A stretch of DNA of 61,436 bases, from UHGV virus genome UHGV-0213688. The stretch is one strand, 5' to 3'. The stretch comes from a virus. Numbering within the stretch: position 1 is the first letter of the stretch; each line of letters starts with the position of its first letter. Under the pieces are notes generated by a model. The model was given only the letters and a program-made list of their open reading frames with translations. It ran no database searches and was not told the origin of the DNA. Shown one piece after another: positions 1-22,322 of the stretch. A program made the translations under genes and the position numbers.

Positions 1-54
1 TTGCTTACCTCTTATGCCCATTTACGTACACAAGGATTCTTAATAATAAATTGT

Positions 55-279: not shown

Positions 280-280
280 T

Positions 281-2386: not shown

Positions 2387-2510
2387 TTTTACCTCTTGTT
2401 TCGCAGAGTTGATCAATTAATGGATGCACTATGGCATACAAATATGGTAAATTAAATTAGAATATAAAACAATATTGTCTATCATCTTTAACCACATTGT
2501 TGGAGTAATT

Positions 2511-3476
2511 ATGCCAGAGGGTATTTATATAAACTACAATGACGGCAGACCTGCAATGCAGATAACAGCAGGATTACGCGCCCCGTCTTTTTGCGCCAAC
2601 TTCAATCAACGCTGTCAATCCGATAAAACTCTAACCATCAATACACCTTTAACGCCGGGATCGCAGCTTATCGTTGTTATGACTAACCCCGTTGAAGTAT
2701 TAGAAGTATTTGATCAGACGCTAGTTATCCCTGATCCAATGTATGTAACGTCTGTAACTCGAAACGGTGACGGTGGGGTGACGTTGCGAGGCGCGGATGG
2801 ACTTAGCGCTTATAGTGGATTGCCGCAATGGGCAGGGGTAATTATGGAAGTGTTACCTGTAGGAACGCGAAACGAGGGTCTATTTGTAGCTAACTCCACG
2901 GACTTCACAGCAATATCCAACGCAGCCTTTCTCATGACTTGTCAGTATTCCCAGTACGTGTGGGTTAACGGCAGTATGCCATTGCCCGTGGGGGGTATTC
3001 CGTTTGCTCGCTGGAACGACCCTAACGTGTCAGTAGGTTTTGATGGTTCAAATATTATTGTGCGAAATGCAGCGTATGGCGGAATTGATGATGTATCCGC
3101 TTCGGTTGGCATGGAGTTGGTAATATTTAATAACACGCCCCCACAGCCTGGTGAGGGTATCACCATGACGAACAACGCCGGACAGGTAACGTTCTCCACT
3201 GTTAAGAAGCCGTTTGTATTCAACGGGACAGTGAACCTTAGCGCTGGTTGGCAGAATATTGGAAATAGCTTGATACAGCTTTCGTACACGGGTACGCTTA
3301 TTGAAAACAATAGCGGTTATAATCATATACGCATGAACGGGATCCGCATGGCGGATAATGTGGTAGGTGCTGCAAGAAACCGCGTGGTAGGTAACTACTC
3401 ACGTCAACAATTCCAGTTGCCTGGTCGCAACGTTGTCATCCCAACACCCCTTATAGTCATACCAAATATGTATTAA
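2511..3476 (+). CDS. hypothetical protein, divergently oriented inside tail module
   Basis: ORF 2475..3476; preferred ATG 2511 (MPEGIY) with GGAG 6 nt upstream; followed by bidirectional terminator. Confidence 0.55.
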   Translation: MPEGIYINYNDGRPAMQITAGLRAPSFCANFNQRCQSDKTLTINTPLTPGSQLIVVMTNPVEVLEVFDQTLVIPDPMYVTSVTRNGDGGVTLRGADGLSAYSGLPQWAGVIMEVLPVGTRNEGLFVANSTDFTAISNAAFLMTCQYSQYVWVNGSMPLPVGGIPFARWNDPNVSVGFDGSNIIVRNAAYGGIDDVSASVGMELVIFNNTPPQPGEGITMTNNAGQVTFSTVKKPFVFNGTVNLSAGWQNIGNSLIQLSYTGTLIENNSGYNHIRMNGIRMADNVVGAARNRVVGNYSRQQFQLPGRNVVIPTPLIVIPNMY

Positions 3477-3477
3477 T

Positions 3478-3500
3478 AAACGGGGCGCATGCCCCGTTTA
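3478..3500. terminator. bidirectional rho-independent terminator between convergent genes
   Basis: palindrome AAACGGGGC-GCAT-GCCCCGTTT flanked by A/T runs on both sides. Confidence 0.6.
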
Positions 3501-3509
3501 AACATTTAA

Positions 3510-6161
3510 TTACCAGCGCCCTACTATGACAACACCACCGCCAGATAACGGAACACGAATTCCATTACTATCAATCGTAATACCTCCATTTCCGGTGAAG
3601 CCAAATTGTCCAGCATTAGCAACGATGGTCCCTCTTGCAATTATGTTATTCACATGGAAATATCCGTCTTTAGTAATTGCCCAGCCTTGATCATTACCAT
3701 TCCAGTTATAGGATTGAATAATATTACCTATCTTGGCATTGGTAATTGAGCCGTTCTCAATAAAAGCTTCTTGTAAGAAACTTTGACCGTTTTTAATAGC
3801 AAAAGCAAGCTGTGCTGCTCCCGCTACAGGGTTATAAATAGCGAAGTTGTCCGCACTCACCATGAAGTAAGACTGGAATTGTCCTCCGCTACCTTCGATA
3901 CCTAACTGCATACCTGCAACATATTTGTTACCATTATTGTCAATCTGAACTTTTTGACCCCATTGAGCGGAAAGTTTTCCGTTAAGGTCCGCTAGTGCTT
4001 GTGACTGTCCTTGCACGGTGGCAACAACATTACCCACACTTGTCTGAACAGAATCTATCTTGGAAGCTTGACCTTCTACCACTTTGGATAATTCTGTTAC
4101 ACCGTCATCAACCTTTTGCACAGTCTCCATGAGGTTTTTGAAAGTCTCAGTTTCTTGAAACTCTTTATCCATGATTTCTATAATCTGTGCGGTTTCTGCC
4201 CATACACGAGCTTCAACTTCCACAAACGCGGACGAGCCAAAGGCGTTGATAGTTCTTATATACCAGTAATAAGTGTGGTCATTGAGTAAGTTATTTTTCT
4301 GCCATATAGTTCCCATACCTTCACGGGTAGCATCACGCTCAACAACATCTGTATTAGCAGATGCCAGTTTTGTTTCACCAGACGTCCAGAAATCAAATTG
4401 CGTGCTAACACTAGTCAGCTCTGCAATCTTTGGTATAAGAGTTAAAGAAAAATAACCGTTCTGTATCTCGACAGATGAAGGCGGCGGTGGAGCTTGAATA
4501 TTAAACTCCAGATAAGCTTCCGGTGATATTGCACCGCTGTGAGATACAGCTTGAACGTGCGCAGTATAGGCCCCACGAAGCAGCCCAGTAACACGAACGC
4601 TTTGGCCAGGGACTTGTGCGGTCCAAATAGTAACGCCTCCCTGTCGCACAGCTACGCGGTTATATGCGACTTGCCCCATGTTTGTCCAGGATAATACCCC
4701 CTGTACCACATCACTGATTTGCAATATCTGGTATTGAAGATTTTGAGGTTGAGCAACACCACCACTTGGCAAGTCTACAAGATCCGGTCTGTCCATAGGT
4801 TTACCAATTGCATCGTCCCACATTTCCAGGAAATCTTGACGTAATGTAAGGTTAACACCACCTTTAGGGTTAAAAGACCATTTGGTAACGCGCATTTCAA
4901 CATTCTTCATGCCAATCTGCGTAATGGTAACTTTTACATACATTCCTGGACGGAACTTATAACCCTTCATGTTACAAGGGATTTCAATTGTACGTCCAAC
5001 ACGTTTACGACGTAGAATAATATTAGACAAACGTTGTGCCTGATATTCACTAGTTACAAAACGAAAATCCATGTCCTGAGTTATTTCCCCGCCATCCTTT
5101 TCCACCCATTCCTTAACCACAACTGGGGGGAAGTCTGCTTCAACGTAGTTCTGCTTCGGATCAATAAATGTCCCTGTGATGGTGTTTGTGCGCTCCTTAT
5201 AAGAAGTCTCTGGAACAATCTTAATATCCCCAGCAATACAACTTTCGTCCAGCGTCATTGTTGCTGGACCGTAATATGCGCCAACCAGAAGACCGTGTTT
5301 ACCCGCCACATACGTTAGCTCGCCACCACAAGCTTGCAACATAGCATCCAGAATTTTGGAGGGGGCTTCATCTACTTCAAATTCACCGTTAATTTTATAA
5401 CGGCGCTCTGTAGAACCATCAGCGTTATTGACGTATTCATCACAGATGTTAGCAGCTTCTTTGAACTGGTCCCAGTTAATATCTTCATCTTTTCGCTTTA
5501 AATACGTGCGGAAGTAATCAAGTATTACTAAAGCTGCATTATCGCTAAATATGGTATAGCCAGAACGAGGATCATATACACGGCGTCCTCTTTTAAGAAG
5601 CTTAATGTTTGGCAAACCAGAAGGGAATTTTTCTGCATTAAATTTAAAGCTAATGCGAAGCCATGCAATCCCTTTCCCAATCATATCCTCTTTCCAGGAA
5701 GGGCAATTGCTTAACATGAATGGATCTACAGTCTGACGGTCGTTATGAAATTCCCAAGTAACATACTGTTCGAAAGTCTGTACAAGATCATCCCCAAGCC
5801 AAATATCACCAATCCCCTCCAATGGATGTGAAGCTACAACAAGCGCCATATGCAGGAGTTCGTCTTCGTCTTGATCACCAGGCTGCTCCTCGGCAAACGT
5901 CATAACACCGGAAGCAACCGTTGTCCCGTATACTACTGTTCGGGACGCTGCGGCTGCTCGTAAAACCTGCTTACGCTCTTGTTGACCTTTATAAGCATTA
6001 AAGTTCATATTAGGTGTCTTAGTTAAAAGAGCACCTGCCGCAGTTGCAGCCATACCAATAGCCAAAGCTACGCCCGTAGCAATCCACCCCGCCGCAGCGG
6101 CAGCGGAAGCACCTAAAGCTATTGCTGCTCCAATTATTGCTGGTGGCATTAGACCCTCCAA
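3510..6161 (-). CDS. tail tip / host-specificity protein (central fibre, J-like)
   Basis: 883 aa; last gene of the tape-measure-distal tail set; hydrophobic Ala/Gly-rich N-terminus, repeated beta-rich C-terminal region; 13-nt overlap with upstream gene. Confidence 0.65.
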   Translation of the reverse strand: MEGLMPPAIIGAAIALGASAAAAAGWIATGVALAIGMAATAAGALLTKTPNMNFNAYKGQQERKQVLRAAAASRTVVYGTTVASGVMTFAEEQPGDQDEDELLHMALVVASHPLEGIGDIWLGDDLVQTFEQYVTWEFHNDRQTVDPFMLSNCPSWKEDMIGKGIAWLRISFKFNAEKFPSGLPNIKLLKRGRRVYDPRSGYTIFSDNAALVILDYFRTYLKRKDEDINWDQFKEAANICDEYVNNADGSTERRYKINGEFEVDEAPSKILDAMLQACGGELTYVAGKHGLLVGAYYGPATMTLDESCIAGDIKIVPETSYKERTNTITGTFIDPKQNYVEADFPPVVVKEWVEKDGGEITQDMDFRFVTSEYQAQRLSNIILRRKRVGRTIEIPCNMKGYKFRPGMYVKVTITQIGMKNVEMRVTKWSFNPKGGVNLTLRQDFLEMWDDAIGKPMDRPDLVDLPSGGVAQPQNLQYQILQISDVVQGVLSWTNMGQVAYNRVAVRQGGVTIWTAQVPGQSVRVTGLLRGAYTAHVQAVSHSGAISPEAYLEFNIQAPPPPSSVEIQNGYFSLTLIPKIAELTSVSTQFDFWTSGETKLASANTDVVERDATREGMGTIWQKNNLLNDHTYYWYIRTINAFGSSAFVEVEARVWAETAQIIEIMDKEFQETETFKNLMETVQKVDDGVTELSKVVEGQASKIDSVQTSVGNVVATVQGQSQALADLNGKLSAQWGQKVQIDNNGNKYVAGMQLGIEGSGGQFQSYFMVSADNFAIYNPVAGAAQLAFAIKNGQSFLQEAFIENGSITNAKIGNIIQSYNWNGNDQGWAITKDGYFHVNNIIARGTIVANAGQFGFTGNGGITIDSNGIRVPLSGGGVVIVGRW

Positions 6162-6583
6162 ATATCCGTGATTTTGATCTTATTAAGCGGGAATGTTTCC
6201 ACACCGTCCGGGCCCATAGCCCATACATATCCCGTCCATAATATGCCAGCAGTTAAGCCCAATGCTCCCTCAAATGTAACCACATCTCCTCTTTGTGCAA
6301 AGTTCTTATCAACACGCTCACTCAGGTAAGCATCCAGCAAGGTTGGAAGATAAGCTGTTCCGACTTTTTCAATTGAAAATCGCTTGCTTCCAAGCTCTGT
6401 GCTATATTTACCTGCTATCTGATTATAAATATTTGTGTTGTATTGTGCATCAACACATTTAGCGGCAAACGTACAGCAATCGTTTTCGCCCCAAGAAAAA
6501 GGAGTCGATGCTAACTCCTTTACTGTGGTTAATAAACGTGTCTGCCATCCTGGCATTTTACTCATACGTGAATCCTGGCGCAT
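6149..6583 (-). CDS. tail assembly protein, NlpC/P60-like (K-like)
   Basis: ORF 6149..6733 overlaps upstream gene in another frame; preferred ATG 6583 (MRQDSR) with GGGGAG upstream; ENDCCTF Cys motif suggests a papain-like/NlpC fold. Confidence 0.5.
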   Translation of the reverse strand: MRQDSRMSKMPGWQTRLLTTVKELASTPFSWGENDCCTFAAKCVDAQYNTNIYNQIAGKYSTELGSKRFSIEKVGTAYLPTLLDAYLSERVDKNFAQRGDVVTFEGALGLTAGILWTGYVWAMGPDGVETFPLNKIKITDIWRV

Positions 6584-7142
6584 CTTTTTTACTCCCCCAA
6601 AAGATTGAACGTTCAGCCATTTGCGCAACATATCTAAAGAACCGATCACCCGGATGTAAACGTTGCTGACTTTCATCCGTATAGCGATCCGGTAAACCCT
6701 GCGACCAACGCTCAAAGACATTGGCAATAACATAACTCAACGCATTCTGTTGCCCTGCTTGTAAAGCAGTGTCTGTGATAAACCCTTCAAATAATACGTT
6801 TGCACCAGTGACAACGCCTTGATCGTTCATAACCGCAAGATAGCAAATAACATTGCGGCCAATAACTTCTTCGTTTAACGTTTCTCCTACAAGACTCATA
6901 TCCAGACCGCTAAGTGCCATGGACATAGTGCTTGAGCTTGTGCTGTTTTCTTCTGTAACCGATCCAACATCCCCTAGAGTGCCTACACCAAGAAAAGTCT
7001 GACCATTGATAATAACAGTTCCTGTTCCAGTATGAACGCGGGTTATACCGGAAGGGAAGTCTATTTCCGCTGCCAACACTAGCGCAACGTTTGGTTGCTC
7101 CATTGCGCTAAGAAGGCTGTCGCTAAACGGACTGAATAACAT
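6558..7142 (-). CDS. minor tail protein
   Basis: 194 aa; position between distal tail protein and NlpC-like gene; start codon overlaps upstream stop. Confidence 0.5.
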   Translation of the reverse strand: MLFSPFSDSLLSAMEQPNVALVLAAEIDFPSGITRVHTGTGTVIINGQTFLGVGTLGDVGSVTEENSTSSSTMSMALSGLDMSLVGETLNEEVIGRNVICYLAVMNDQGVVTGANVLFEGFITDTALQAGQQNALSYVIANVFERWSQGLPDRYTDESQQRLHPGDRFFRYVAQMAERSIFWGSKKDAPGFTYE

Positions 7143-7726
7143 TAAAATGCCTCCGAGAATTTTAAAGTAAAGGAGTTATTAAAAGCAGGCTGACGTTTAA
7201 CTCCATTTGTGTTTTCGGCTAAACGGAAAGATCCTTGTGGTTTCTGAGTTTCAATCTTTGCACCGTTTGGAGGGATGCTTCTTAACATCGGGGCAATATT
7301 TAAAATCACGTTACCAGAAGAATCACTCCAAGCATCTTCTGTTATTAATTTTAATTCATTGTTCACTGCGATGTAGTCCCCTTCCCATAATACCTTACGG
7401 TCAGGAGTCCAGCCCTTAGTTGACAAAGTTGTCCCAGTGTTATTTGCCCCATTAACCACAGGTGATCCCATTGGAGGTCGACCCCAGCGACCAAAATCCT
7501 GAAGCATAATCCGACCAGCTTTACCATCAAGTTTGGCTAACGTTGATTCAAGCTTTCTAGACTGCCAATCATTTAAATTGCTGAATGTTAGCGTAGCTTC
7601 CCATCGCGATCCAGGATAGGACACAGTTTGGGAAGCCCCATTGAAGGGGCTTGTAAATTCTACAGCGTTTGAGACTAGATACCATTCCATTTCCGATGGT
7701 CTAAGCTCTTCGGGCCAAGTGAGCAT
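7142..7726 (-). CDS. minor tail protein (distal tail, directly after tape measure)
   Basis: 194 aa; starts 4 nt after tape-measure stop. Confidence 0.5.
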   Translation of the reverse strand: MLTWPEELRPSEMEWYLVSNAVEFTSPFNGASQTVSYPGSRWEATLTFSNLNDWQSRKLESTLAKLDGKAGRIMLQDFGRWGRPPMGSPVVNGANNTGTTLSTKGWTPDRKVLWEGDYIAVNNELKLITEDAWSDSSGNVILNIAPMLRSIPPNGAKIETQKPQGSFRLAENTNGVKRQPAFNNSFTLKFSEAF

Positions 7727-7729
7727 ATA

Positions 7730-10700
7730 TTACCCCATTGCAGTTCTACGAATTGTTCCTCGGGATGCAAAGTCAGTAAGAACTTTATTATATCCCTGCT
7801 CCGCACCATCACGAGCTGCTTGCTGCATGGCTTGCGTGAGCGCAGCATCGCCATTTCCTTGCACCGTGATATACTGAACAATGCTAACACCACCGGACAT
7901 ATTCACGCCACCTTGTTGTGAAGCTTGACTATCCAGGAAGCGGTTTAACTTGTCATTAGACGGGGCATTAAGTACACGTTCACCTTTATCCAATAACCAT
8001 GTACCTTCGCGCGGAACATTATCAATACCGTCATGCGCCATACCAGCGATTGCTAAGCCACCCACAGTAGCAGCAGACGCATAACCCATAGCTTTCACTA
8101 TACCAGCCATAGCTGCGCCCATTGTAGCACCGCCTTGCTGTGTACCCCACGCAAGCGCCGCTGATGCCGCTGTCTCCGTGTTAGCAAGGATTGATGGAAT
8201 TTGCATTGCTTTCTGTGCGGCAAACATTGCCTTATAAATAAAGTTCTGTTTACTAACACCTTCTTCCAGCCCTGACAGTATAATACCCAACGATTCCTGA
8301 GAAAAGGATATCATTCTGTTCATAAGAACTTTATCCAGGTTTTCCCTTTCCATACTTGCTTTCTTCAGGACTTGTGTTTTAGCATCTTCGTAAAGCTGAT
8401 AGTAAGCTAGATCATCGGCTCGTTGTTTTGCATTAAGCTCTGCAATCTTTGTATTTTGCTCGTACGCGATTTTTTCATAGTCCGTCATACCTTCATCTAA
8501 CAGACCCTGAGCAAACTTACGATTCTTCTTACGCTCGTCCAGTTTCTTTTGAGCTTCTTCTGCATCGTAAATTGCAGCAGCAAGACTAACAACTTCTGCT
8601 TTTTCCGCAGCAGTTGCAGACGCATTGAGCTTATTGAGGGCGACAGCTTGGGCTTTCGCTTTGGCGTTTTCCTTAACCCCTGTGGTTACTTCGTTAAGCT
8701 TGTTTCGTAAATCGTCAATAACCTTGGCGTTTTGTTGATCCGCCTTAATAGCGTCTTTTGTAGCTTTAGTCCTGTTTCTCTCTGCTTCTTCAAGATCGTA
8801 GTTTTTGCCAAGGGCTTGGGCTAAATCTTGAGCATACTTAACAAGCTCTTTAGCGGATTCGCTTGTTGCCTCTGAGCTAACGTCCTGACCCATAGCTACT
8901 TTGCGAATAAGACTTCCGTATGTATCCGCATCCTTGCCCAGCGTCTGATACAGTCCCCTAAGGATTGCAGCTTGGCGAGCATTGCCAGCACCTTTAACCG
9001 TGTTAACATCAATCTCACGGTTAACGTCCCCGAGTTGGCCTTTAAAGCGATCCAATACTTTTTCGTCAATTAGCGGACCGGATTTAATGTTAAGGACAGC
9101 CTTCATATCCGCAGCAAGCTGACGCGCTAGAGGGATTATTTTCTCTATAGCGGGGCTTGTCATTTCAAGTACATTGTTATATCGACGTTGTGCGTCTTCC
9201 GCGCGTTCAGCGGCTAGCTTGACGTTATCCGTAGCAATCTGTAAGTTCTTTTCTGCACTAGCAGTATCTCGACCGGATGCAGCTCGACGCTTCAATTGTG
9301 CTTCATAGAACTTCTGCGTTTCCGTTGCAGATTTTAGAGCGGTCTGTTCCCGCTTCATTTGCTCTTCAAGTTCAGGAAGAATTGCTCTAGCTTTGACCGC
9401 GTTAGCTGCCAACTGAGCTTCTGTCATTTGCATCAGTTTTTCGCGTACACTGTCAACACTATCCGCAAACTGATTGTTTTCCGCACGACCTGCTTCCAGC
9501 GACGCTTTATAGGAGTAAATTGCACCCGCTGCCAGCATTGCTACACCAACAGGACCGCCAATTAACCCCATAGCACCGCGCAGCACGCTCATTGCTGTAG
9601 CTGCCCGGCTTGCTGCTGGTACAGTTGCATTAAGAGCAGCATTGAGCGCTTGCCGCGCTTGTACGTCCGCCATAATTGCCGCAGAGTGAGCACGGGTAGC
9701 ATTGATAAGCGCAAGACGAGCACCCGCTTCCGCTGCCGTACCCTTAGCAACCGCTAACGCACCGCGTGCAACCTGCAAAGATGCAAGGGAAGCAGCACGG
9801 TCCGCAGCCGCTTTTTGTGCAGTAACGCCAATGGAGCTTTGCATCACCGCCGTAGTTGCCGCAGTTTGTGCAGCTTCCATCTGAGATGCTTTTGCAGCAG
9901 CTATAGACGCTTTAGTCTTAGCAAGCATTGCCGTAATGATACGGGCGGTGATTACTGTGGCTAAAGCTGAACCAACCGTTACAACCGTTCCTAAGTTTTC
10001 GGATAATGCAACAAACGTCTGTCCCAATGCAGCAACAGCACCTTGAGTCTTTTGGGATTCGCCCATAAACTTAGTCAGGTTGTTTGTTGCAACTGTCCAT
10101 TGCTGGTTGAACGTTGGCATAGTGCGGCTGAATTCTTTATCAATTGTATCCGCGGCACCAGACAACGATTTGATAACCACATCTGCGGTTAACTTACCGC
10201 TGTAGGCCAGTTCACGCAATTGTCCAATGGTAACGCCTAACGAATCGGACATGATTTGAGTTAAGCGCGGAGCTTGTTCTGCAACAGAGCGGAATTCATC
10301 CCCACGCAGAACACCGGATGCCATTGCTTGCGAAAACTGAATAAGGGCAGCACTTGCTTCATGGGATGTTGCACCGGAAACAATCATTGCTTTGTTAATT
10401 GTTTCGGTAATGCGTCCAAGCTCCATCCCTGTCATACCAGTATTCTTCATCGCACGCTGGAGACGGGAGTACAGAGTTGCAGTCGCTTCTAAGCTTGTAC
10501 GAGAACGCTGGGCAATATCAAACACGCGTTGCTGCGCATCTGCAACGGTTTCATTACCCGTACGAGCCAGTTCAAGTTTGTTGGTGAGGATAGTCCAGGA
10601 GTCCGATAGCGAAATAACACGGCTAATAGTGTCAACGCTAATCATTCCTACAATTGCAGCATCCAAACGACTTGTGACAGTTGCAAGTTCGTTAGATGTG

Positions 10701-10846
10701 TTAGACAATGTTTTATAGCTGGAGGTAACACGTTGAGCAGACCGCTCCGCTGTGTCACCTGTACGCGCTAAGTTCCGCAACATAGAGTCCGCGGTAGTAA
10801 TCCCTCTCGCGTCAACTCTGATTACTAGCGAAGCGGTTTCGGCCAT
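7730..10846 (-). CDS. tail tape measure protein
   Basis: 1038 aa, Ala-rich, long predicted helical/coiled-coil stretches; AAGGAG before ATG; preceded by chaperone with frameshift. Confidence 0.85.
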   Translation of the reverse strand: MAETASLVIRVDARGITTADSMLRNLARTGDTAERSAQRVTSSYKTLSNTSNELATVTSRLDAAIVGMISVDTISRVISLSDSWTILTNKLELARTGNETVADAQQRVFDIAQRSRTSLEATATLYSRLQRAMKNTGMTGMELGRITETINKAMIVSGATSHEASAALIQFSQAMASGVLRGDEFRSVAEQAPRLTQIMSDSLGVTIGQLRELAYSGKLTADVVIKSLSGAADTIDKEFSRTMPTFNQQWTVATNNLTKFMGESQKTQGAVAALGQTFVALSENLGTVVTVGSALATVITARIITAMLAKTKASIAAAKASQMEAAQTAATTAVMQSSIGVTAQKAAADRAASLASLQVARGALAVAKGTAAEAGARLALINATRAHSAAIMADVQARQALNAALNATVPAASRAATAMSVLRGAMGLIGGPVGVAMLAAGAIYSYKASLEAGRAENNQFADSVDSVREKLMQMTEAQLAANAVKARAILPELEEQMKREQTALKSATETQKFYEAQLKRRAASGRDTASAEKNLQIATDNVKLAAERAEDAQRRYNNVLEMTSPAIEKIIPLARQLAADMKAVLNIKSGPLIDEKVLDRFKGQLGDVNREIDVNTVKGAGNARQAAILRGLYQTLGKDADTYGSLIRKVAMGQDVSSEATSESAKELVKYAQDLAQALGKNYDLEEAERNRTKATKDAIKADQQNAKVIDDLRNKLNEVTTGVKENAKAKAQAVALNKLNASATAAEKAEVVSLAAAIYDAEEAQKKLDERKKNRKFAQGLLDEGMTDYEKIAYEQNTKIAELNAKQRADDLAYYQLYEDAKTQVLKKASMERENLDKVLMNRMISFSQESLGIILSGLEEGVSKQNFIYKAMFAAQKAMQIPSILANTETAASAALAWGTQQGGATMGAAMAGIVKAMGYASAATVGGLAIAGMAHDGIDNVPREGTWLLDKGERVLNAPSNDKLNRFLDSQASQQGGVNMSGGVSIVQYITVQGNGDAALTQAMQQAARDGAEQGYNKVLTDFASRGTIRRTAMG

Positions 10847-11651
10847 TATCTTCTCCTTTTTCTTCTACCTTTATTTTGATTTTGCATTTGACTTTCCATG
10901 AGTTTAGCATTTTGTTCAGCTTCTGACACGCGCTTTTCAAGCCATAGCTGCCGCAGTATTTCGCATTCGTATGGTTGAAGATGTAAGCCCATTGTCACTT
11001 GATAGCTGTGCAATTCTGTATAACTAAAATCTCCTCCAGTGTAGATATCATCAAATAAAGTAGATAGATATTCGAAGCAAAGCGGTATTTCCTTTTCCCG
11101 ATATTCTTTAAGCTTAGGTGGCGTCTTACCAGACTGTTCCTCAACCTTTTGCAGTTGCGATAATAAAGAAGATCCCCCGCCGGGGACTTTACTATTTAGT
11201 TCCCATTGGAGGATCTTCTTATCAATTAACTGTCTGCGCGCTTTTAGAAAAAATTACTATCTTTAGCGGCAAATACGTTAAGGTCTTCTCGAACAGTTGG
11301 GTTCTCCGTTAAGAACTCAAACACGTTGTCAACAGTCGGTGGCTCGTCAAAAGTCCAACCTGCTACAAGGTTACACAGTGAACGGGTAAGGATGTCTTCC
11401 TTCATAGCATCTGTTACTTCCCCGTCTTTACCCTGCATAAGTGCCAACAGTTGACGTTGTGCTTTCAATTCTGCGTCACGATACTCTGTGCAGTAGCGAC
11501 TACGAATGTAGAGTTTTTCGCCAGTGTCGCCTACACCAGGAATAACCACATTCATAGGCTTAGTGTTTGCCGGATCGTTAGCCCGGCTCACAGTTTTAAA
11601 ATCACGGAAGCTTTTAGCTACTGCAACTTTGCCTTTTTTGGTGTCGGTCAT
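10846..11651 (-). CDS. tail assembly chaperone G-T fusion product via -1 programmed ribosomal frameshift
   Basis: the -1 frame stays open for about 134 codons from the slippery site at 11247-11253 down to a TAA at 10848-10846, which overlaps the tape-measure ATG; no ATG-initiated ORF fills this 400-nt gap. Confidence 0.65.
11244..11651 (-). CDS. tail assembly chaperone (G-like, zero-frame product)
   Basis: 135 aa; AAGGA RBS; lies between major tail protein and tape measure; ends AAT TTT TTC TAA. Confidence 0.65.
   Translation of the reverse strand: MTDTKKGKVAVAKSFRDFKTVSRANDPANTKPMNVVIPGVGDTGEKLYIRSRYCTEYRDAELKAQRQLLALMQGKDGEVTDAMKEDILTRSLCNLVAGWTFDEPPTVDNVFEFLTENPTVREDLNVFAAKDSNFF
11247..11253 (-). 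promoter_or_regulatory. slippery heptamer U UUU UUC (-1 frameshift site)
   Basis: mRNA reads ...AGU AAU UUU UUC UAA; X XXY YYZ pattern in zero frame immediately before the stop. Confidence 0.6.
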
Positions 11652-11660
11652 TTCTTATCC

Positions 11661-12584
11661 TTATTCTGCCGCTAAAACGCGGGTAATTTTGATGGAACTT
11701 GCGGTTGTTGGGTCCAGCAATCCGCGGTAGCCCATATTAAGCATGATATCACCTTCACCGTCAATAGGACGCGGAGCCTCAGTGAATTTCACGCGAGGGA
11801 TTTCCACTGTGTATTTCTGTTCCGGATTGGTCGGGTCAATCAGGTCAAACTTGATTGATGTCTCCACTTCATCCAGATACTTCATACGCAGTTTATTATC
11901 CAGGAAGTAAACGTTAGCTGTACCAGTTACAGCACGGCGACCAGCAGACGGTTCAATGGAGAACTTCGAGCCAACAACGAAGCGTGGGGCGATATCGTTT
12001 TCAACGGTAAGACCGATTTCCGTAATAACGCTGATCTCTTCGTTGTTTTCCAGCAAGCGACCGGAGAAACCATCCATCGGTGAAGTAGTTGTACGCTCTT
12101 TGATAGTTGCACCAGCAGGAAGCGATTCCGCAATTTCCATCGAGCGACCAACAATGCCGAACTCTACTGTGGTCATGTTTTCAGCAGACAATGCGAAAGT
12201 CATGCTATTAACTTCACAACCGCGATAGATTGTATATTTACCTGACGGCAGATCTGCGTTATAGTCTACGAAAGTAAATGACTGACGGACAATACCACCT
12301 TTAAGGACGTTGTCTTGCCATTCACCGCGCAGTGCTGCCGCAATGAGGTCGTCAAATGTACCGAAGGACATTTCGCCTGTTACCGTACCTTCAACGCTTC
12401 GAGCGCCAAGACGGAAATCTGCGGTTTCTGCGTCATCGCGCAACTCTTCAGACTCCAGCGTCGCGATGTTAATATCCAGACCGGAACTCGTCACACGAAA
12501 CGGGGTAAACTTTGCGTTCGCTGGAGTTGTGTTGCTCACATCTTCTTTGACGTAATAACACGAATAACGTGAACCTGTAGCCAT
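11661..12584 (-). CDS. major tail (tube) protein
   Basis: 307 aa; GAGAGGA RBS; immediately upstream of chaperone/tape-measure. Confidence 0.65.
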   Translation of the reverse strand: MATGSRYSCYYVKEDVSNTTPANAKFTPFRVTSSGLDINIATLESEELRDDAETADFRLGARSVEGTVTGEMSFGTFDDLIAAALRGEWQDNVLKGGIVRQSFTFVDYNADLPSGKYTIYRGCEVNSMTFALSAENMTTVEFGIVGRSMEIAESLPAGATIKERTTTSPMDGFSGRLLENNEEISVITEIGLTVENDIAPRFVVGSKFSIEPSAGRRAVTGTANVYFLDNKLRMKYLDEVETSIKFDLIDPTNPEQKYTVEIPRVKFTEAPRPIDGEGDIMLNMGYRGLLDPTTASSIKITRVLAAE

Positions 12585-12598
12585 ATTTAGATCCTCTC

Positions 12599-13048
12599 TT
12601 ACCTCGGCTCACGAGCCGACCAATAGATTGTGATAAAGTTAACGTCCCAGTTATCTTCAACCCCGCCTTTGGTAAAATCGTTCAGCGAAGTTTGCCCACC
12701 TTGCGAAAAGTCTAAACTGACAATCCGTAACGTGTGGTCATCCGGGCACGGGATACGCAAGCCCAGTTTAAACTTTTTCCGAATGGAATCCAAGATTTGA
12801 TTCTGTTTAGATGTTCCGGTGTTTAACGGACTGTACACTGTGACTTGATAGAATCCTGGAATTTCATTCAGACCGTTGTCACCTAACGTTGCCGCGTATG
12901 TGGATGCAGGTGCATTGATTGCCTTTAACCACATCTGATTCGCTTTAGGTGTAAACTTCTTGTTCTTCCACGCTATACCTATATCCGGTCCAACGGCTTC
13001 GCGTAGCATCTTATTAAATGCGTCATTGATAAAATCGTATCCCAGCAT
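12599..13048 (-). CDS. tail terminator / tail completion protein (by position)
   Basis: 149 aa, gene order between head-tail joining genes and major tail protein. Confidence 0.4.
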   Translation of the reverse strand: MLGYDFINDAFNKMLREAVGPDIGIAWKNKKFTPKANQMWLKAINAPASTYAATLGDNGLNEIPGFYQVTVYSPLNTGTSKQNQILDSIRKKFKLGLRIPCPDDHTLRIVSLDFSQGGQTSLNDFTKGGVEDNWDVNFITIYWSAREPR

Positions 13049-13455
13049 TATAGTTTTCCTTCTACAATAGCTTGGCGTATCAACATTGGAAGCTTCGCTA
13101 CGTTAATACGCACCATGCCATTTGGCGCTTGCTGCGACCAACCAAGATATTCAAGTTTCGGAGCATACGGGGTTAAGTTGCTAAAGTAGAAAGTCCAGTC
13201 TTTATCATCTGGCAACTGTCTTACGATAACCCTAGCTTCCGCTTTAGCTAATTCCCCAGTAGGATCAAGGCGGATAGTTTCCGTCGCATATGGTGCACCA
13301 ATGGATGAACGCCAACCGCCTTTTGTGCGTCCTGTCTTAACAGGGGTATCCTGAATCACGTTCTCCGTAAACTTGACAACAACCTTTTTGGCTTGCTCCC
13401 CAGTCTGGACAAGCACCTTTTGACTTGCACGCCGTATATCCGCCCCGAATCCCAT
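13048..13455 (-). CDS. neck / tail-completion protein (by position)
   Basis: 135 aa; start overlaps upstream stop. Confidence 0.4.
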   Translation of the reverse strand: MGFGADIRRASQKVLVQTGEQAKKVVVKFTENVIQDTPVKTGRTKGGWRSSIGAPYATETIRLDPTGELAKAEARVIVRQLPDDKDWTFYFSNLTPYAPKLEYLGWSQQAPNGMVRINVAKLPMLIRQAIVEGKL

Positions 13456-13835
13456 TATCGCGTCACCTTGAAAGTATAAAGAACAGAAACATTAGCAGGT
13501 CTTGTATCAACGAACTCGTTGATTGTCCATACTTCCAACTCACCGTCGGGAGACATGCGCTCAATGCGTGCAGTCATTGCTTTATCACGTGTCAGCGGCG
13601 GAGTCATTGGATAGGTTAAGACTTTCAATTCGCCAGTAGCAACAAGGCTCCCACCGATCATTTTTTCCTTCGGAGAAAGAAAAGCTCCAATAAATGGGTA
13701 GCGTTTTTCAACACTAGGATTGTCCCACTCATCTTGACCTTCTCCTTCTTCCATGACCACAAGGGTACAGTTCACGCCAGCGTCGTTGATCATTTGCTTT
13801 GAAGCTTCAACTAACTGCTCATAAGGAAAGCTCAT
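13455..13835 (-). CDS. head closure / head-tail adaptor protein (by position)
   Basis: 126 aa, tightly packed in head-tail joining set. Confidence 0.4.
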   Translation of the reverse strand: MSFPYEQLVEASKQMINDAGVNCTLVVMEEGEGQDEWDNPSVEKRYPFIGAFLSPKEKMIGGSLVATGELKVLTYPMTPPLTRDKAMTARIERMSPDGELEVWTINEFVDTRPANVSVLYTFKVTR

Positions 13836-13838
13836 AAA

Positions 13839-14345
13839 TCACCGTATTAATCTGTTACCCATTTGATAACCCAGCAAAGGTGATAAAAACGTCATTGCTT
13901 TATCGTAAGTCTTTGCTGGTCCGGATTGCGCGGTACTACCAGTTGCATATTCAATCTCAAGCCCTTCCACTTTAGTTCTTTTGACTGCATATGCTGTAGT
14001 TTTACCGTTAAGAGGACCGCCAGATGCAGAGTCCGCTGTAAGCTGGCAAACCGCGTTTATAAGCGCCTTTGGTAAAGGGCTTTGGGGTAGCTCGAACCCA
14101 TCCACAAACACCCCGTAGCGTGGCCAATTTAGCGGTTGCTGTGGGTCCATTTTATAACCCTTAAACCGTTGGCCGTATCCTTCCACAAAATCCATAGCGT
14201 CGAAGATCTTTGTCTTTAGATCTTCATCTTCACTTGGAAGTACAATACCTCGCATTGCGGCATACATGCGGACTTGTTCAATGGTCACATAACTGTTGGC
14301 GTCCGATACACCAGTACCATCTTCAACTATCAGTGGAATCTCCAT
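13839..14345 (-). CDS. head-tail connector protein (by position)
   Basis: 168 aa, first gene after capsid-associated genes. Confidence 0.4.
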   Translation of the reverse strand: MEIPLIVEDGTGVSDANSYVTIEQVRMYAAMRGIVLPSEDEDLKTKIFDAMDFVEGYGQRFKGYKMDPQQPLNWPRYGVFVDGFELPQSPLPKALINAVCQLTADSASGGPLNGKTTAYAVKRTKVEGLEIEYATGSTAQSGPAKTYDKAMTFLSPLLGYQMGNRLIR

Positions 14346-14483
14346 CTTTCTTCCTCATTGCGATGGTTGTAGGGATAAGTGGCGGGAGCTCTTCTTCAGG
14401 AACAGAAACGGCGTCTTCTTGACGCCGTTTTCTATTACGTCGGAGGAGCCACAACACATATTGTCTATGGCTCATTTCCATGA

Positions 14484-15137
14484 TTAACCTCGACGCATCA
14501 TATTACGTGCAACCATACGGGCGACCGGATCGTCAATAGGGTTCTGGAAGCGATGGTCAGAAAGCATGTCTTCCGGTTTACGTTTTTTCTGCGCTTCAAG
14601 ATACATCTGAGTTGCAGTAAGACCGGACTTAGGACGACGACTTTCTTGCTCAACGATAATCTTATCCAGATCCGCTTGAACGTCTGCAATAGCAAGCTCC
14701 AGCGCGTGCTTAGTGTGGGCAATCTCTTTAACCACATCGCTAAGCTTTTCGCTCTTCGCTTTCAGTTCTTCATCGGTTAAGCTGGAAGCGTCACCGATTT
14801 TTTCCGGCTCCAGAAGAGCACGCAGTGCTTCGCTAATCTTAACTTCAATTTGCATCGTTGCAACCGCGACTTTCTTTTGTTCTTCATGAGCTTTCTCCTG
14901 TTTAACAGCTTCATGTAAAACTGGATCAGCAGATTTAACAGGTTCCACTGGCTCTGGCTCTTCCAGCACGCGGTTATCGCGGGTAAACAGTGGAGCAGCA
15001 GTTGTAATATCGTCGCGGGTTAAAGATGGGTTAGCGGTAGCGAAACGCAAAGCATCCACTTTAGGTAGACCGTCGCTAGTCCAATGATTCGGGTTATCCG
15101 GATCAAGTTCTAACAATGCTTCAATTAATGTCTTCAT
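14484..15137 (-). CDS. hypothetical structural-module protein
   Basis: 217 aa, acidic, helical; between Ig-like protein and connector. Confidence 0.4.
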   Translation of the reverse strand: MKTLIEALLELDPDNPNHWTSDGLPKVDALRFATANPSLTRDDITTAAPLFTRDNRVLEEPEPVEPVKSADPVLHEAVKQEKAHEEQKKVAVATMQIEVKISEALRALLEPEKIGDASSLTDEELKAKSEKLSDVVKEIAHTKHALELAIADVQADLDKIIVEQESRRPKSGLTATQMYLEAQKKRKPEDMLSDHRFQNPIDDPVARMVARNMMRRG

Positions 15138-15153
15138 TGTTTAATCCTTATTT

Positions 15154-15477
15154 TTAGGTCACATTAATAACACATGTACCAGTAACACTATCCTTTGCCT
15201 TGGACGTTACTGTCAAGTTTGAAGTACCACTGCTTGCGGTTGTGGTCACGGTAATTGTACCGTCCCCGTTGTCTTTAATTGTAGCAGAGGAACCGTCAAC
15301 TGACGCACTATACGCTTTGTTTGTAGTTCCGCCTGGGACAAAGTTTATTTTAACAGTAACCGTTTTTACTTCTGAAGTTGTGGTGTCAATCTTAGCAGGA
15401 TCGAGAGTAATCGAAATTGGCTCCACCTGCAACGATTTTTCCATCAAGTCATGTCGTTCATAACGTTGATAACGCAT
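15154..15477 (-). CDS. Ig-like (Big-type) domain protein, probable capsid decoration
   Basis: 107 aa Thr/Ser/Val-rich beta-sandwich-like sequence; AGGAG RBS; separate ORF just downstream of major capsid gene. Confidence 0.5.
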   Translation of the reverse strand: MRYQRYERHDLMEKSLQVEPISITLDPAKIDTTTSEVKTVTVKINFVPGGTTNKAYSASVDGSSATIKDNGDGTITVTTTASSGTSNLTVTSKAKDSVTGTCVINVT

Positions 15478-15546
15478 GGTTGTTCTCCTAAAAAAGAGGG
15501 GACATAAATGTCCCCAAAATACTACAGCGCGGCGTTGAGTGAAGCC

Positions 15547-16608
15547 TTAGGAACCCTGATACTCACGAGTGATCAGGCGAGCAACTTTAAGCTGCTTGCG
15601 CTCAGGGAACGCACGACGCCAGGAATCTGCATGGGCCAGGTTGTTAGTAGTTGCAGCGTTAGACGGACCACCTTTAGCAGTTTGAGCAGCAGCCCAAGCA
15701 TGGCCAACAGGATGCAGAATCCATTCAACACGGTTGTGAAGAACTTCTTCACCAGCGCCTTGGTTAGCAGCTTCGTCACGAACAACCGCAGTCGGCACTT
15801 TCGGTGAACCAGCACCCATTGCAGTCGCGCCCGGGCCAAACAGCCAGCTTTCAAAGATACCAGTACGCGGATCGTGCGGCATGGAGTCGTCTTCAATAAT
15901 ACGCAGACCCTGATAATACTCAAACTGAGTTTCACCGCGAGCATCTGGAATGAAGTCGATCAGGTTCAACTGACGCATACGGTTACGAACGGTAGAGTGT
16001 ACCATAATCATGGTCAGACCGCGAGCAGCATCACCCATCGTTGCCGTTGCGTTGATGAAGTTAGACGCGGTAAAGTTGGTCTGGTTATTCGTAAAGGACT
16101 CGCCAGAAATATCGAAAGTCAAATCGTCGTTATGGGATTTCTTCGCATTGGCAAATACACCTTTCCAGGTTGCAATGTATGCAGCTTGCAGACGGCGAAC
16201 CCACCACGCAGACACGCGATTACCGATAGCGGTCATTGGGTCGTTACCAATCAAAGCAGATACCAGATCCGCAGAACCCCAGGATTTTGAACGACTCATA
16301 CGAACCTGAACTTCAGATCCGGTAGTGATGTTAGAAGGTTTGGACGGATCGCCTTTATCAACAGCGATATCTTCGTCTTCATCTTTCAGGTCGTTATAGA
16401 ACGGCTCGTTAAAAGTCAGACCTGCACCAGCAAGGTTAGCAGATAAACGCTCGTCCATTACAACCGCACCGGATTGGATCAGAGCAGAAAGTTCGGCGGT
16501 CTGCGTCTGCACATAACCAGTGAAGATCTCAGGGACAATGACATCCTTCAAACGAGTCAGGTCAGTTTCGCCACGACCAAAGGGTAGAATAATTTTAGAT
16601 TTAGACAT
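15547..16608 (-). CDS. major capsid protein
   Basis: 353 aa; follows scaffold gene; size and position typical of an HK97-fold capsid protein. Confidence 0.75.
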   Translation of the reverse strand: MSKSKIILPFGRGETDLTRLKDVIVPEIFTGYVQTQTAELSALIQSGAVVMDERLSANLAGAGLTFNEPFYNDLKDEDEDIAVDKGDPSKPSNITTGSEVQVRMSRSKSWGSADLVSALIGNDPMTAIGNRVSAWWVRRLQAAYIATWKGVFANAKKSHNDDLTFDISGESFTNNQTNFTASNFINATATMGDAARGLTMIMVHSTVRNRMRQLNLIDFIPDARGETQFEYYQGLRIIEDDSMPHDPRTGIFESWLFGPGATAMGAGSPKVPTAVVRDEAANQGAGEEVLHNRVEWILHPVGHAWAAAQTAKGGPSNAATTNNLAHADSWRRAFPERKQLKVARLITREYQGS

Positions 16609-16730
16609 ACTTGTCTCCAGGAAAAGGATTGATTTGTTTACTGTTGGTAGCCTTTCCCCGTGGAAGGCTGTTTAGGAACCCGTGTCCCTGATGTGTTGAA
16701 ACTTAACATCAGGGACGTCGGGATGTCAAC

Positions 16731-17603
16731 TTATTTCTTAGCAGGACGTACAGGCTTCAGCGGGTCTACGCCATTCTTTTCAGCTAAACGTTTAGCTAAA
16801 GATTGATTAGTTTTCCAGAGGTTCATCTGCTTAGAGATGTTCCAGCCGTCGTGACTGTATGGGTCTTCACCGTGATGGCCGCCAGCGCCCGGACCAGATG
16901 CACCGCCACCAGCAGATCCTTCAACCCAGTGCGGACGCTTCGGAAGGATTTCGTTCAGCCAGTCCGCCGGAGTCAGGTAAGGAGTTACACCAGCCCCATC
17001 TTTCGTAACCACATTGCCGTTCTCGTCGACGGTCATCTGCAACTGTGCATAAGTTACAGCGTCTTCGATAGCAGATGGACGCAATTTAGCACCAGAAGCA
17101 GCGGCAATAACTGCATCTTTAATCTTCGCTTTAGTTTCGCGAGTGCGGTAGCCTTCAATTTCCTGCTTAACCGTGTCACGCTCGGTGATAACAGTTTGCA
17201 ATTGGCGCTCAAGCGGCGCAAGACGGGCTTTAACCATCTTTTCGATGTCTTCCGGAGTACCTTTACCGTTAGCGGCAGCTTCCAGTTGAGGGATACGATC
17301 AAGGTCCGCAAGAACTTCTTCAACCGGACGCCCAAGTGCGCTAATTTGTTGCTTCACTTGACGATGATCGTTACGCTCTTTTGCTAATGCACTTTCCAGA
17401 CGACGAACGCTATCAGCAGGGGCTACACCTTTGACTTTTGCAAGAACGTATTTACCACCCTGCTCTTCGTAAAGAGCAGCAAACTCTGCCGGGATCTCTT
17501 CCGCAGATGCATATTCGTATTCCAGTTCCACATCACCTTCACCGCGAGCGCGTGGATTAATTAGAGCAAAACCAACACTAATAGCTACAGAACTCTTTTT
17601 CAT
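16731..17603 (-). CDS. capsid scaffolding protein
   Basis: 290 aa, charged helical/coiled-coil, Gly-rich C-terminus; between portal and capsid; GGAG RBS. Confidence 0.55.
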   Translation of the reverse strand: MKKSSVAISVGFALINPRARGEGDVELEYEYASAEEIPAEFAALYEEQGGKYVLAKVKGVAPADSVRRLESALAKERNDHRQVKQQISALGRPVEEVLADLDRIPQLEAAANGKGTPEDIEKMVKARLAPLERQLQTVITERDTVKQEIEGYRTRETKAKIKDAVIAAASGAKLRPSAIEDAVTYAQLQMTVDENGNVVTKDGAGVTPYLTPADWLNEILPKRPHWVEGSAGGGASGPGAGGHHGEDPYSHDGWNISKQMNLWKTNQSLAKRLAEKNGVDPLKPVRPAKK

Positions 17604-17698
17604 TTCTTATCTCCGTTGTCACCCGTGTGACGTTTTTGGGGCTGAGCCGTCCCAGCCCCGTGTTCGTTAATATAAACCAATCAACTTGCAAGTTGCAA

Positions 17699-19195: not shown

Positions 19196-19206
19196 ATACC
19201 CTCCAG

Positions 19207-21301: not shown

Positions 21302-21321
21302 GGAAGCTCCCCTTCTTATTG

Positions 21322-22286: not shown

Positions 22287-22322
22287 GTTCCCTCCAATAA
22301 AAAGGGGCTGACGCCCCATCAG

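What the first reader, a model, noticed from the sequence alone, without database searches (positions are those of the whole stretch)
10846..11651. Programmed -1 frameshift producing a G-T tail chaperone fusion
The chaperone ORF ends ...AAU UUU UUC UAA, a slippery heptamer U UUU UUC in the zero frame. The -1 frame then stays open for about 134 codons, exactly to a TAA that overlaps the tape-measure ATG (TAATG). No ATG-initiated ORF of 60 aa or more exists in this roughly 400-nt gap on the coding strand. The frameshift product is the only coherent explanation for the gap.
Basis: seen in the sequence. Interest (0 to 1): 0.55.

Follow-up and report, generated by a model that had tools for sequence, protein, structure and literature searches.

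The report
Known tail-chaperone G/GT ribosomal frameshift
This is the standard programmed -1 ribosomal frameshift that lets a long-tailed phage make a short and a long tail-assembly chaperone from one gene start; it is real and strongly conserved, but it is already annotated in the closely related phage Seurat, so it is ordinary.

Summary
On the minus strand, a 135-aa ORF (11651..11244) ends AAU UUU UUC UAA. The -1 frame opens exactly at the heptamer U UUU UUC (11253..11247) and stays open for 133 sense codons, to a TAA that overlaps the tape-measure ATG (TAATG, 10848..10844). The interpretation also holds. The pair lies between the tail-tube gene and the tape-measure gene. The -1-frame peptide matches Pfam Phage_TAC_18. 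Its substitutions are mostly synonymous in the -1 frame only (27:9, against 2:36 and 1:37). It has no start codon for its first 78 codons.

Across 54 distinct relatives, from Escherichia to Pseudomonas and Xanthomonas phages, an in-phase slippery heptamer is kept at the G/T junction; 43 of them have T TTT TTC. This holds even where GC3 exceeds 0.9 and where the preceding amino acid varies.

The window is a Seuratvirus, about 97% identical to phiG7 and ECP2304. The GenBank record of phage Seurat (KM236243, 2015) already annotates this joined CDS with "ribosomal slippage" at the same heptamer. Novelty: already known.

The only mildly new item is a stable hairpin that starts 23 nt downstream of the slip site. 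That is too far for a canonical stimulator, and its role is unknown.

The parts
11661..12584 (-). Tail tube (major tail) protein gene, immediately upstream of G
   Evidence: 307-aa ORF. Matches Pfam PF18906 Phage_tube_2, E 5.9e-41.
11244..11651 (-). Gene G: 135-aa tail assembly (tape measure) chaperone, the zero-frame product, ending at TAA 11246..11244
   Evidence: ORF and translation. Matches PHROG 569 (E 4e-25) and PHROG 313 'tail assembly chaperone' (E 3.6e-11). Annotated 'tape measure chaperone' in Seurat and the BASEL phages.
11247..11253 (-). Slippery heptamer T TTT TTC (U UUU UUC) in X XXY YYZ phase. It lies directly between a -1-frame TAA (11256..11254) and the zero-frame TAA (11246..11244).
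   Evidence: Sequence and phase and overlap analysis. Conserved in phase in 77 of 78 IMG/VR relatives and in 43 of 54 distinct contexts.
10846..11247 (-). T segment: 133 sense codons in the -1 frame plus TAA, with no start codon for the first 78 codons. Translated only as the C-terminal half of the 268-aa G-T fusion.
   Evidence: Translation. Pfam PF23812 Phage_TAC_18, E 4e-9, at fusion residues 170-239. PHROG 569, E 4.8e-47. 33 of 45 differences from Skure fall at third codon positions, with synonymous:nonsynonymous 27:9. The first start codon in this frame is TTG at 11013.
11161..11224 (-). Predicted RNA hairpin inside the T coding region. The main stem is about 17 bp and its 5' base lies 23 nt after the heptamer. 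Possible accessory element; role not established.
   Evidence: MFE -38.6 kcal/mol for the 117 nt downstream, z -4.3. Lowest 0.5% of GC-corrected windows in this genome. More stable than synonymous recodings (z -2.8). Hairpins over the same codons occur in the 9g, Vid5 and Kpn2-P2 lineages.
7730..10846 (-). Tape measure protein gene (1038 aa). Its ATG overlaps the T stop (TAATG) and it has its own AGGAG Shine-Dalgarno at 10857..10853.
   Evidence: ORF and sequence. Pfam PF20155 TMP_3, E 9.9e-60.

Best explanation
This is the G/GT tail assembly chaperone pair of a Seuratvirus siphophage, expressed by programmed -1 ribosomal frameshifting.

Most ribosomes translate gene G and terminate at UAA, giving the 135-aa chaperone. 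A minority slip back one nucleotide while the two tRNA-Phe molecules occupy UUU UUC. Both tRNAs can re-pair on UUU UUU in the -1 frame. Those ribosomes continue through 133 further codons and make a 268-aa G-T fusion, which ends where the tape-measure gene begins.

By analogy with lambda gpG/gpGT, the G part would bind the tape measure protein and the T part would recruit the tail tube protein. The slip frequency would then fix a high G:GT ratio needed for correct tail assembly.

Shown here: the sequence anatomy, coding in the -1 frame, family membership, and conservation of the slip site. Inferred: that slippage actually occurs, its efficiency, and the protein-protein roles.
For: 1. Anatomy is exactly as described. 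The -1 frame is open only from the heptamer onward.

2. Canonical synteny of tube gene, G, T and tape measure gene.

3. The T part matches Pfam Phage_TAC_18 above its curated cut-off. G and T match the adjacent halves of PHROG 569.

4. Purifying selection acts in the -1 frame only: synonymous:nonsynonymous is 27:9, against 2:36 and 1:37 in the other frames, versus Skure at 89% nucleotide identity.

5. No ATG, GTG or TTG occurs in the T frame for 78 codons, yet protein conservation begins immediately after the Phe-Phe junction in a 10-genus alignment. F134 is invariant and F135 nearly so, and there are no gaps across the junction.

6. Of 54 distinct relatives, 43 carry T TTT TTC in phase. The rest carry other canonical heptamers: T TTT TTT, A AAA AAG, T TTT TTA / T TTA AAG, A AAT TTT, C CCA AAG. 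The codon before Phe-Phe encodes 8 different amino acids but always ends in T. In phages with GC3 of 0.9 or more, the slippery TTT is the only TTT codon in G.

7. G and T profile matches lie in frames f and f-1 in all 18 diverse loci tested. In six of those 18 loci they end and start on the same nucleotide at the heptamer.

8. The Seurat GenBank record annotates the same join at the same heptamer.

9. The functional model and the roughly 30:1 ratio come from lambda work summarised in PMC5009743.
Against: No experimental evidence for the fusion protein exists for this phage or, as far as I could find, for any Seuratvirus. The Seurat genome paper names a tape measure chaperone but reports no assay.

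No canonical stimulator is present. The only strong downstream structure starts 23 nt after the heptamer, outside the usual 5-9 nt spacer. No Shine-Dalgarno-like sequence lies in the 25 nt upstream.

There is no detectable sequence similarity to lambda gpG/gpGT (blastp E 0.33). The functional roles are therefore transferred by synteny and family annotation, not by homology to the studied protein.
Confidence: 0.93

Rival explanations
1. The product is the same G-T fusion, but the slip is made by a single P-site tRNA-Phe on UUC while the adjacent UAA stop codon sits unread in the A site. This would be a stop-codon-stimulated -1 shift rather than tandem two-tRNA slippage.
For: In this clade the zero-frame stop directly follows the heptamer. 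The same is true in 9g-like phages, Kpn2-P2-like phages and L042. A slowly decoded A-site stop would give time for P-site realignment; this is established knowledge for other frameshift sites and was not tested here. The protein product would be identical.
Against: Relatives keep the full seven-nucleotide X XXY YYZ motif even where the G stop lies 1 to 32 codons downstream. The conserved requirement is therefore the tandem heptamer, not stop adjacency. The strictly conserved T at the X position, across 8 different preceding amino acids, is needed only if the upstream tRNA also re-pairs.
Confidence: 0.08
2. RNA polymerase stutters on the T6 run and makes a fraction of mRNAs with seven U. These mRNAs would encode the same G-T fusion by ordinary translation (transcriptional slippage).
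For: The site is a homopolymer run. It is T6 here and T7 to T8 in some relatives, such as 9g and L084. The encoded protein would be identical, so the sequence alone cannot exclude a small contribution.
Against: Six residues is short compared with the runs of about 9 or more that support productive slippage by bacterial RNA polymerase (established knowledge; the topic is reviewed in PMC5009743). Relatives with non-homopolymeric heptamers at the same junction (T TTA AAG, A AAT TTT, C CCA AAG) fit tRNA re-pairing but not polymerase stuttering. The motif is always in X XXY YYZ phase (77 of 78 relatives), which polymerase slippage would not require.
Confidence: 0.03
3. T is a separate small protein started at an internal start codon, as several GenBank records annotate: a 48-aa ATG ORF in the BASEL phages and CSP1C, and a 70-aa TTG ORF in Skure. 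Alternatively, the gap is non-coding.
For: Automated annotations of close relatives call such short ORFs. A 55-aa TTG ORF exists in the T frame here.
Against: The first 78 codons of the -1 frame have no ATG, GTG or TTG, yet they are conserved at the protein level from the first codon after the heptamer. The Pfam TAC domain spans fusion residues 170-239, which starts upstream of any possible start codon. Third-position substitution bias covers the whole segment. An open frame of 133 codons has a chance probability of about 7e-5.
Confidence: 0.02
4. The two frames result from a homopolymer sequencing error, and in reality G-T is one continuous ORF.
For: Homopolymer runs are error-prone on some sequencing platforms.
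Against: The identical T6 run and two-frame layout recur in 35 independently sequenced close relatives and in 54 distinct, more distant contexts.
Confidence: 0.01

Closest known systems
Escherichia phage Seurat tape measure chaperones CPT_Seurat13/14 (GenBank KM236243; Doan et al. 2015, PMC4342423)
   Same: Same genus. The region is 97.7% identical in nucleotides and 99.2% in amino acids. It has the same T TTT TTC heptamer followed by TAA.
   Different: Only a few substitutions. The window is closer to phiG7, ECP2304 and GottfriedDienst (97-99%), whose records do not annotate the frameshift.
Bacteriophage lambda gpG / gpGT (Levin, Hendrix and Casjens 1993; Xu, Hendrix and Duda 2004, 2013, 2014; summarised in PMC5009743)
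   Same: Same gene order of major tail protein, G, T and tape measure. Similar sizes: G 140 aa versus 135 aa, and GT 279 aa versus 268 aa. A -1 shift at a canonical heptamer near the end of G. The T stop overlaps the tape-measure start. The functional model is taken from lambda.
   Different: Lambda uses G GGA AAG six codons before the G stop, whereas here U UUU UUC abuts the stop. There is no detectable sequence similarity (blastp E 0.33; profile score -0.6 bits). The lambda T stop overlaps H by 8 nt, against 1 nt here.
E. coli dnaX -1 frameshift (A AAA AAG with an upstream Shine-Dalgarno-like element and a hairpin about 6 nt downstream); from established knowledge and PMC5009743
   Same: Tandem-tRNA -1 slippage on a homopolymeric X XXY YYZ heptamer in an enterobacterial host. 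A stop codon is met soon after the site in one of the frames.
   Different: No Shine-Dalgarno-like stimulator lies upstream, and no hairpin lies at 5-9 nt. The only strong structure starts at +23. Efficiency is expected to be a few percent, like lambda, rather than about 50%.

Membership tests
Tail assembly chaperone G/GT pair made by programmed frameshift (Xu, Hendrix and Duda 2004 class) | Two consecutive ORFs lying between the major tail (tube) gene and the tape measure gene | tested here: met
   Tube gene 11661..12584 (PF18906), G 11244..11651, T 10846..11247, tape measure gene 7730..10846 (PF20155), all on the minus strand.
Tail assembly chaperone G/GT pair made by programmed frameshift (Xu, Hendrix and Duda 2004 class) | The second ORF is in a shifted frame, overlaps the 3' end of the first, and lacks its own start codon | tested here: met
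   T is in the -1 frame. The overlap is the 7-nt heptamer. The first ATG, GTG or TTG in this frame is 78 codons in.
Tail assembly chaperone G/GT pair made by programmed frameshift (Xu, Hendrix and Duda 2004 class) | A canonical slippery sequence X XXY YYZ in the zero frame within the overlap | tested here: met
   T TTT TTC at 11253..11247, in phase.
Tail assembly chaperone G/GT pair made by programmed frameshift (Xu, Hendrix and Duda 2004 class) | The slip site and the two-frame layout are conserved among homologues despite sequence divergence | tested here: met
   77 of 78 IMG/VR relatives and all 12 divergent GenBank relatives have an in-phase heptamer. T homology is always in the -1 frame.
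Tail assembly chaperone G/GT pair made by programmed frameshift (Xu, Hendrix and Duda 2004 class) | Sequence membership of a curated tail assembly chaperone protein family | tested here: met
   PF23812 Phage_TAC_18 scores 36.9 bits against a cut-off of 27, on the T part. The G part matches PHROG 313 'tail assembly chaperone', E 3.6e-11. No Pfam family matched the G part.
Tail assembly chaperone G/GT pair made by programmed frameshift (Xu, Hendrix and Duda 2004 class) | The fusion protein is actually made, at a low fixed ratio to G, and is needed for tail assembly. G binds the tape measure protein and T binds the tube protein. | not testable with these tools
   This needs mass spectrometry, western blotting, reporter assays and genetics. 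No such data for Seuratvirus turned up in the paper searches.
Lambda gpG/gpT sequence family | Detectable sequence homology to lambda gpG or gpT | tested here: not met
   blastp E 0.33; profile of A1 against lambda GT scores -0.6 bits. The resemblance is one of architecture and function, not of demonstrable sequence relationship.
-1 frameshift sites with a 3' RNA structural stimulator (dnaX or IBV type) | A stable stem-loop or pseudoknot whose 5' end lies 5-9 nt (a minority 12-15 nt) after the heptamer | tested here: not met
   The main stem starts at +23. Only weak 4-5 bp outer helices start at +10 or +11. The spacer ranges are from PMC5009743. There are no Rfam matches.
Programmed transcriptional slippage | A long homopolymer run (about 9 or more), with no dependence on reading phase | tested here: not met
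   The run is T6 here. Relatives have phase-locked and sometimes non-homopolymeric heptamers.

The most novel reading that the evidence does not exclude
The stable hairpin that begins 23 nt downstream of the heptamer (window 11224..11161, minus strand) may be a selected RNA element of the G/GT cassette. Its counterparts lie over the same codons, in different pairing registers, in the 9g, Vid5 and Kpn2-P2 lineages. It might act as a long-spacer modulator of the G:GT ratio. It might instead protect the sparsely translated T segment from Rho-dependent termination or nucleases, so that tape-measure expression is not subject to polarity. Either role would lie outside the canonical 5-9 nt spacer model.
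Probability: 0.15. Interest if true: 0.4.

Novelty: already known. Interest (0 to 1): 0.1.

Why it matters
Scientifically it adds little. The G/GT frameshift is one of the best-known recoding events in tailed phages, and this instance is already annotated in the type species of the genus.

Its practical value is for annotation. Most deposited Seuratvirus and Nonagvirus genomes either leave the 400-nt T segment unannotated or call a truncated 48-70-aa ORF there. RefSeq names G 'tail length tape measure protein', which is wrong. The comparative result is a clean rule for annotating this whole chaperone family correctly: an in-phase U UUU UUC is kept from E. coli phages to Pseudomonas and Xanthomonas phages, even at GC3 above 0.9.

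Tried and rejected
1. Canonical downstream stimulator. Folding the 117 nt after the heptamer gives a strong hairpin (z -4.3), but it starts at +23. RNAalifold on a codon-aware alignment of 16 sequences found no shared consensus structure (-0.07 kcal/mol), because the registers differ between lineages. I do not claim it as a stimulator.

2. Synonymous-recoding control. It is significant in 4 of 7 enterobacterial lineages and not in EC151, L030 or PSTCR4. The values for GC-rich phages (L009-L012) were discarded, because the recoding used this window's codon usage and so biased their controls.

3. Terminator reading of the inner CCCCGGCGGGG hairpin. This is one site reported three times, against 1.2 +/- 1.2 matches expected in shuffles. 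It is explained by the Pro-Gly-Gly-Gly codons, and no U-tract is conserved in 9g.

4. Rfam. There were no hits at gathering score on the whole window. Two sub-threshold plus-strand hits (mir-1002, RAGATH-25) in the hairpin region are chance palindrome matches.

5. Solved-structure relatives by sequence profile. Only noise turned up, namely DNMT3 and a designed protein at E of 0.009 or worse.

6. Homology to lambda G/T: none detected.

7. Literature searches for this heptamer in tail-chaperone frameshifting found nothing specific.

8. Structure prediction and the large protein-database searches were not run. The family assignment and the verdict did not depend on them.

Full report
**What the window is.** A 1.1-kb query around the finding matches 35 phage genomes at 90-99% nucleotide identity or more. 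All are Seuratvirus-type siphophages of the subfamily Queuovirinae, including GottfriedDienst, ECP2304, Seurat and CAjan. The first 25 kb of the window is about 96.6% identical to phages phiG7 and ECP2304. The genes of the tail module lie on the minus strand.

**Checking the observation.** Read on the minus strand, a 135-aa ORF runs 11651..11244 and ends ...GAT AGT AAT TTT TTC TAA. The heptamer T TTT TTC at 11253..11247 is in X XXY YYZ phase. Reading from the C at 11247 in the -1 frame gives LKARRQLIDKK... for 133 sense codons. It ends at TAA 10848..10846, which shares its last A with the ATG of the 1038-aa downstream ORF (TAATG).

The codon just before the heptamer in the -1 frame is itself a stop (TAA, 11256..11254). 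The zero and -1 frames are therefore both open only across the heptamer, and a -1 shift anywhere else could not join them.

On the coding strand the gap holds only TTG-initiated ORFs of 55, 49 and 42 aa. The gap has no internal stop in the -1 frame, against 4 and 16 in the other two sense frames. At its composition (39.6% G+C), 133 open codons has a probability of about 7e-5, and none of 20000 shuffles stayed open.

**What it is.** The upstream ORF at 11661..12584 is a tail tube protein (Pfam Phage_tube_2, E 5.9e-41). The downstream ORF is a tape measure protein (Pfam TMP_3, E 9.9e-60). This is the canonical position of the tail assembly chaperone pair.

The simulated fusion protein matches Pfam PF23812 Phage_TAC_18 above its curated cut-off (36.9 bits against 27). 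The match covers residues 170-239, which lie inside the -1-frame part. In PHROGs, the G part matches positions 11-126 and the T part positions 130-256 of one 256-position profile, PHROG 569. The G part also matches PHROG 313, 'tail assembly chaperone'.

**Is the -1 frame really translated?** Three independent lines say yes.

- Substitution pattern. Against phage Skure and an IMG/VR relative, both 89% identical in nucleotides over the T segment, 33 of 45 differences fall at third positions of the -1 frame. Codon changes are 27 synonymous to 9 nonsynonymous there, against 2:36 and 1:37 in the other two frames.
- Distant homology. tblastn with the fusion finds relatives down to about 27% identity in Klebsiella, Pantoea, Enterobacter, Providencia, Pseudomonas and Xanthomonas phages. 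Nearly all match as two pieces in two frames.
- Junction conservation. Fusion proteins built by a simulated shift at each relative's heptamer align without gaps across the junction. F134 is invariant and F135 nearly so, and conservation continues through the T part with P178, Y195, E213 and E229 invariant.

The T frame has no ATG, GTG or TTG for its first 78 codons, and the Pfam domain starts before any possible start. Independent initiation therefore cannot account for the conserved sequence.

**Is the slip site selected?** I examined 78 IMG/VR loci and 13 GenBank loci encoding relatives. Of the 78 IMG/VR loci, 77 carry a canonical heptamer in the zero frame inside the 0/-1 overlap.

Among 54 distinct sequence contexts, the heptamers are:

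| Heptamer | Contexts |
|---|---|
| T TTT TTC | 43 |
| T TTT TTT | 4 |
| A AAA AAG | 3 |
| T TTT TTA (overlapping T TTA AAG) | 2 |
| A AAT TTT | 1 |
| C CCA AAG | 1 |

The codon preceding Phe-Phe encodes eight different amino acids (L, R, N, A, H, F, V, D) but always ends in T. In phages whose G gene has GC3 of 0.9 or more, the slippery TTT is the only TTT codon in the gene. That is selection on the nucleotides, not on the protein.

In 18 diverse or outlying loci, profile searches place G homology in frame f and T homology in frame f-1 without exception. In six of them the two matches end and start on the same nucleotide at the heptamer.

**Mechanism.** The best-supported mechanism is tandem -1 slippage of the two tRNA-Phe molecules from UUU UUC onto UUU UUU. 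Decoding then continues with CUA AAA GCG..., and the product is a 268-aa G-T fusion alongside the 135-aa G.

In this clade the zero-frame stop abuts the heptamer, which raises the possibility of a stop-stimulated P-site slip. However, relatives keep the whole heptamer with the stop 1 to 32 codons further on, so adjacency is not the conserved requirement.

Transcriptional slippage on T6 would give the same protein. It is disfavoured by the short run, by the strict phase, and by the non-homopolymeric variants at the same junction.

The functional model comes from lambda work as summarised in PMC5009743, and is inferred here. In that model G and the G part of GT bind the tape measure protein, the T part binds the major tail protein, and the ratio is roughly 30:1.

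**Stimulatory signals.** No Shine-Dalgarno-like sequence lies in the 25 nt upstream of the heptamer. Downstream, the 117 nt after the heptamer fold to -38.6 kcal/mol (z -4.3 against dinucleotide shuffles). This is dominated by a hairpin of about 17 bp at 11224..11161. The segment is in the lowest 0.5% of GC-corrected 117-nt windows in this genome, and it is more stable than synonymous recodings of the same peptide (z -2.8).

Hairpins over the homologous codons, but in different pairing registers, occur in 9g (recoding z -3.1), Vid5 (-4.95) and Kpn2-P2 (-3.9). They are weaker in EC151 (-1.65) and absent or insignificant in L030 and PSTCR4. RNAalifold finds no common structure, and Rfam has no match.

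The stem starts 23 nt after the heptamer. The usual spacer is 5-9 nt, and 12-15 nt in a minority of cases (PMC5009743). The hairpin would therefore lie beyond the leading edge of a ribosome sitting on the slip site. I record it as a probable selected RNA feature of unknown role, not as a demonstrated stimulator. A terminator-like consensus match inside it arises from the Pro-Gly-Gly-Gly codons and is not above shuffle expectation.

**Comparison with what is known.** Position 10236 is the last base of the P-site TTT of the identical heptamer. The fusion protein of this window is 100% identical over residues 1-262 to the two-frame match in phage ECP2304.

Other records are inconsistent. The BASEL phages and CSP1C annotate a 48-aa ATG ORF, Skure a 70-aa TTG ORF, and CAjan nothing. 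RefSeq names G 'tail length tape measure protein'.

Lambda has the same layout: G of 140 aa, GT of 279 aa, G GGA AAG six codons before the G stop, and a T stop that overlaps the H start. It has no detectable sequence similarity to this pair. No solved structure is related by sequence.

**Verdict.** It is a textbook feature, already annotated for the type phage of the genus, so novelty is 'already known' and interest is low (0.1). The residual novel possibility is a functional role for the distant hairpin (probability about 0.15).

Noticed in passing
window 11161..11224 (minus strand); counterparts at about L005 1028-1073, L006 1032-1084, L014 1037-1082, L007 1004-1045: A stable hairpin inside the T coding region starts about 23-36 nt after the slip site. 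It recurs over the same codons, in different pairing registers, in several enterobacterial lineages. It is more stable than synonymous recodings in 4 of 7 of those lineages. It is too distant to be a canonical frameshift stimulator.
   Followed up: partly
GenBank relatives: L001 (Seurat), L002 (GottfriedDienst), L003 (CSP1C), L004 (KS_A8), L015 (Skure), L005 (9g): The T segment is annotated inconsistently. Seurat has a correct joined CDS. Other records have truncated 48-70-aa ORFs, 'hypothetical protein', or nothing. G is often mislabelled 'tail length tape measure protein', which is also the name PHROG 569 carries.
   Followed up: yes
L007 966-975 (Enterobacter phage EC151) and L029: This lineage has two overlapping canonical heptamers, T TTT TTA and T TTA AAG, within TTTTTTTAAAG, instead of T TTT TTC. 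Which of the two is used cannot be told from the sequence.
   Followed up: no
L068 (IMGVR_UViG_3300032046_000978), about 1079-1340: This is the only one of 78 IMG/VR relatives without an in-phase heptamer. T homology is still in the -1 frame, but it starts only at profile position 52, and the -1 frame is open for just 35 codons past the G stop. It could be an assembly error or a rearranged junction.
   Followed up: partly
L033-L043 and L088 (GC-rich IMG/VR contigs): Past the G stop, both the -1 frame (93 codons) and the +1 frame (about 104 codons) are open. In the three loci of this group that were profile-searched (L033, L035, L041), only the -1 frame carries T homology, and T TTT TTC lies 11 codons before the stop in all of them. 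This shows that open-frame length alone is unreliable in high-GC phages.
   Followed up: yes
hit H43, Escherichia phage KS_A8 (L004): The tblastn table showed a single piece covering query residues 1-199 at 72.7% identity, yet the locus has the same two-frame layout and heptamer as the window. This is probably an alignment or reporting artefact.
   Followed up: partly
L011 1297-1337 (Pseudomonas phage PaMx74); L005 1385 onward (phage 9g): The PaMx74 record annotates a transcription terminator between the T stop and the tape-measure start. The 9g tape measure protein is annotated as containing a KilA-C antirepressor domain.
   Followed up: no
whole window 1..61436: An Rfam scan at gathering thresholds returned no RNA family anywhere in the 61-kb window.
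   Followed up: no
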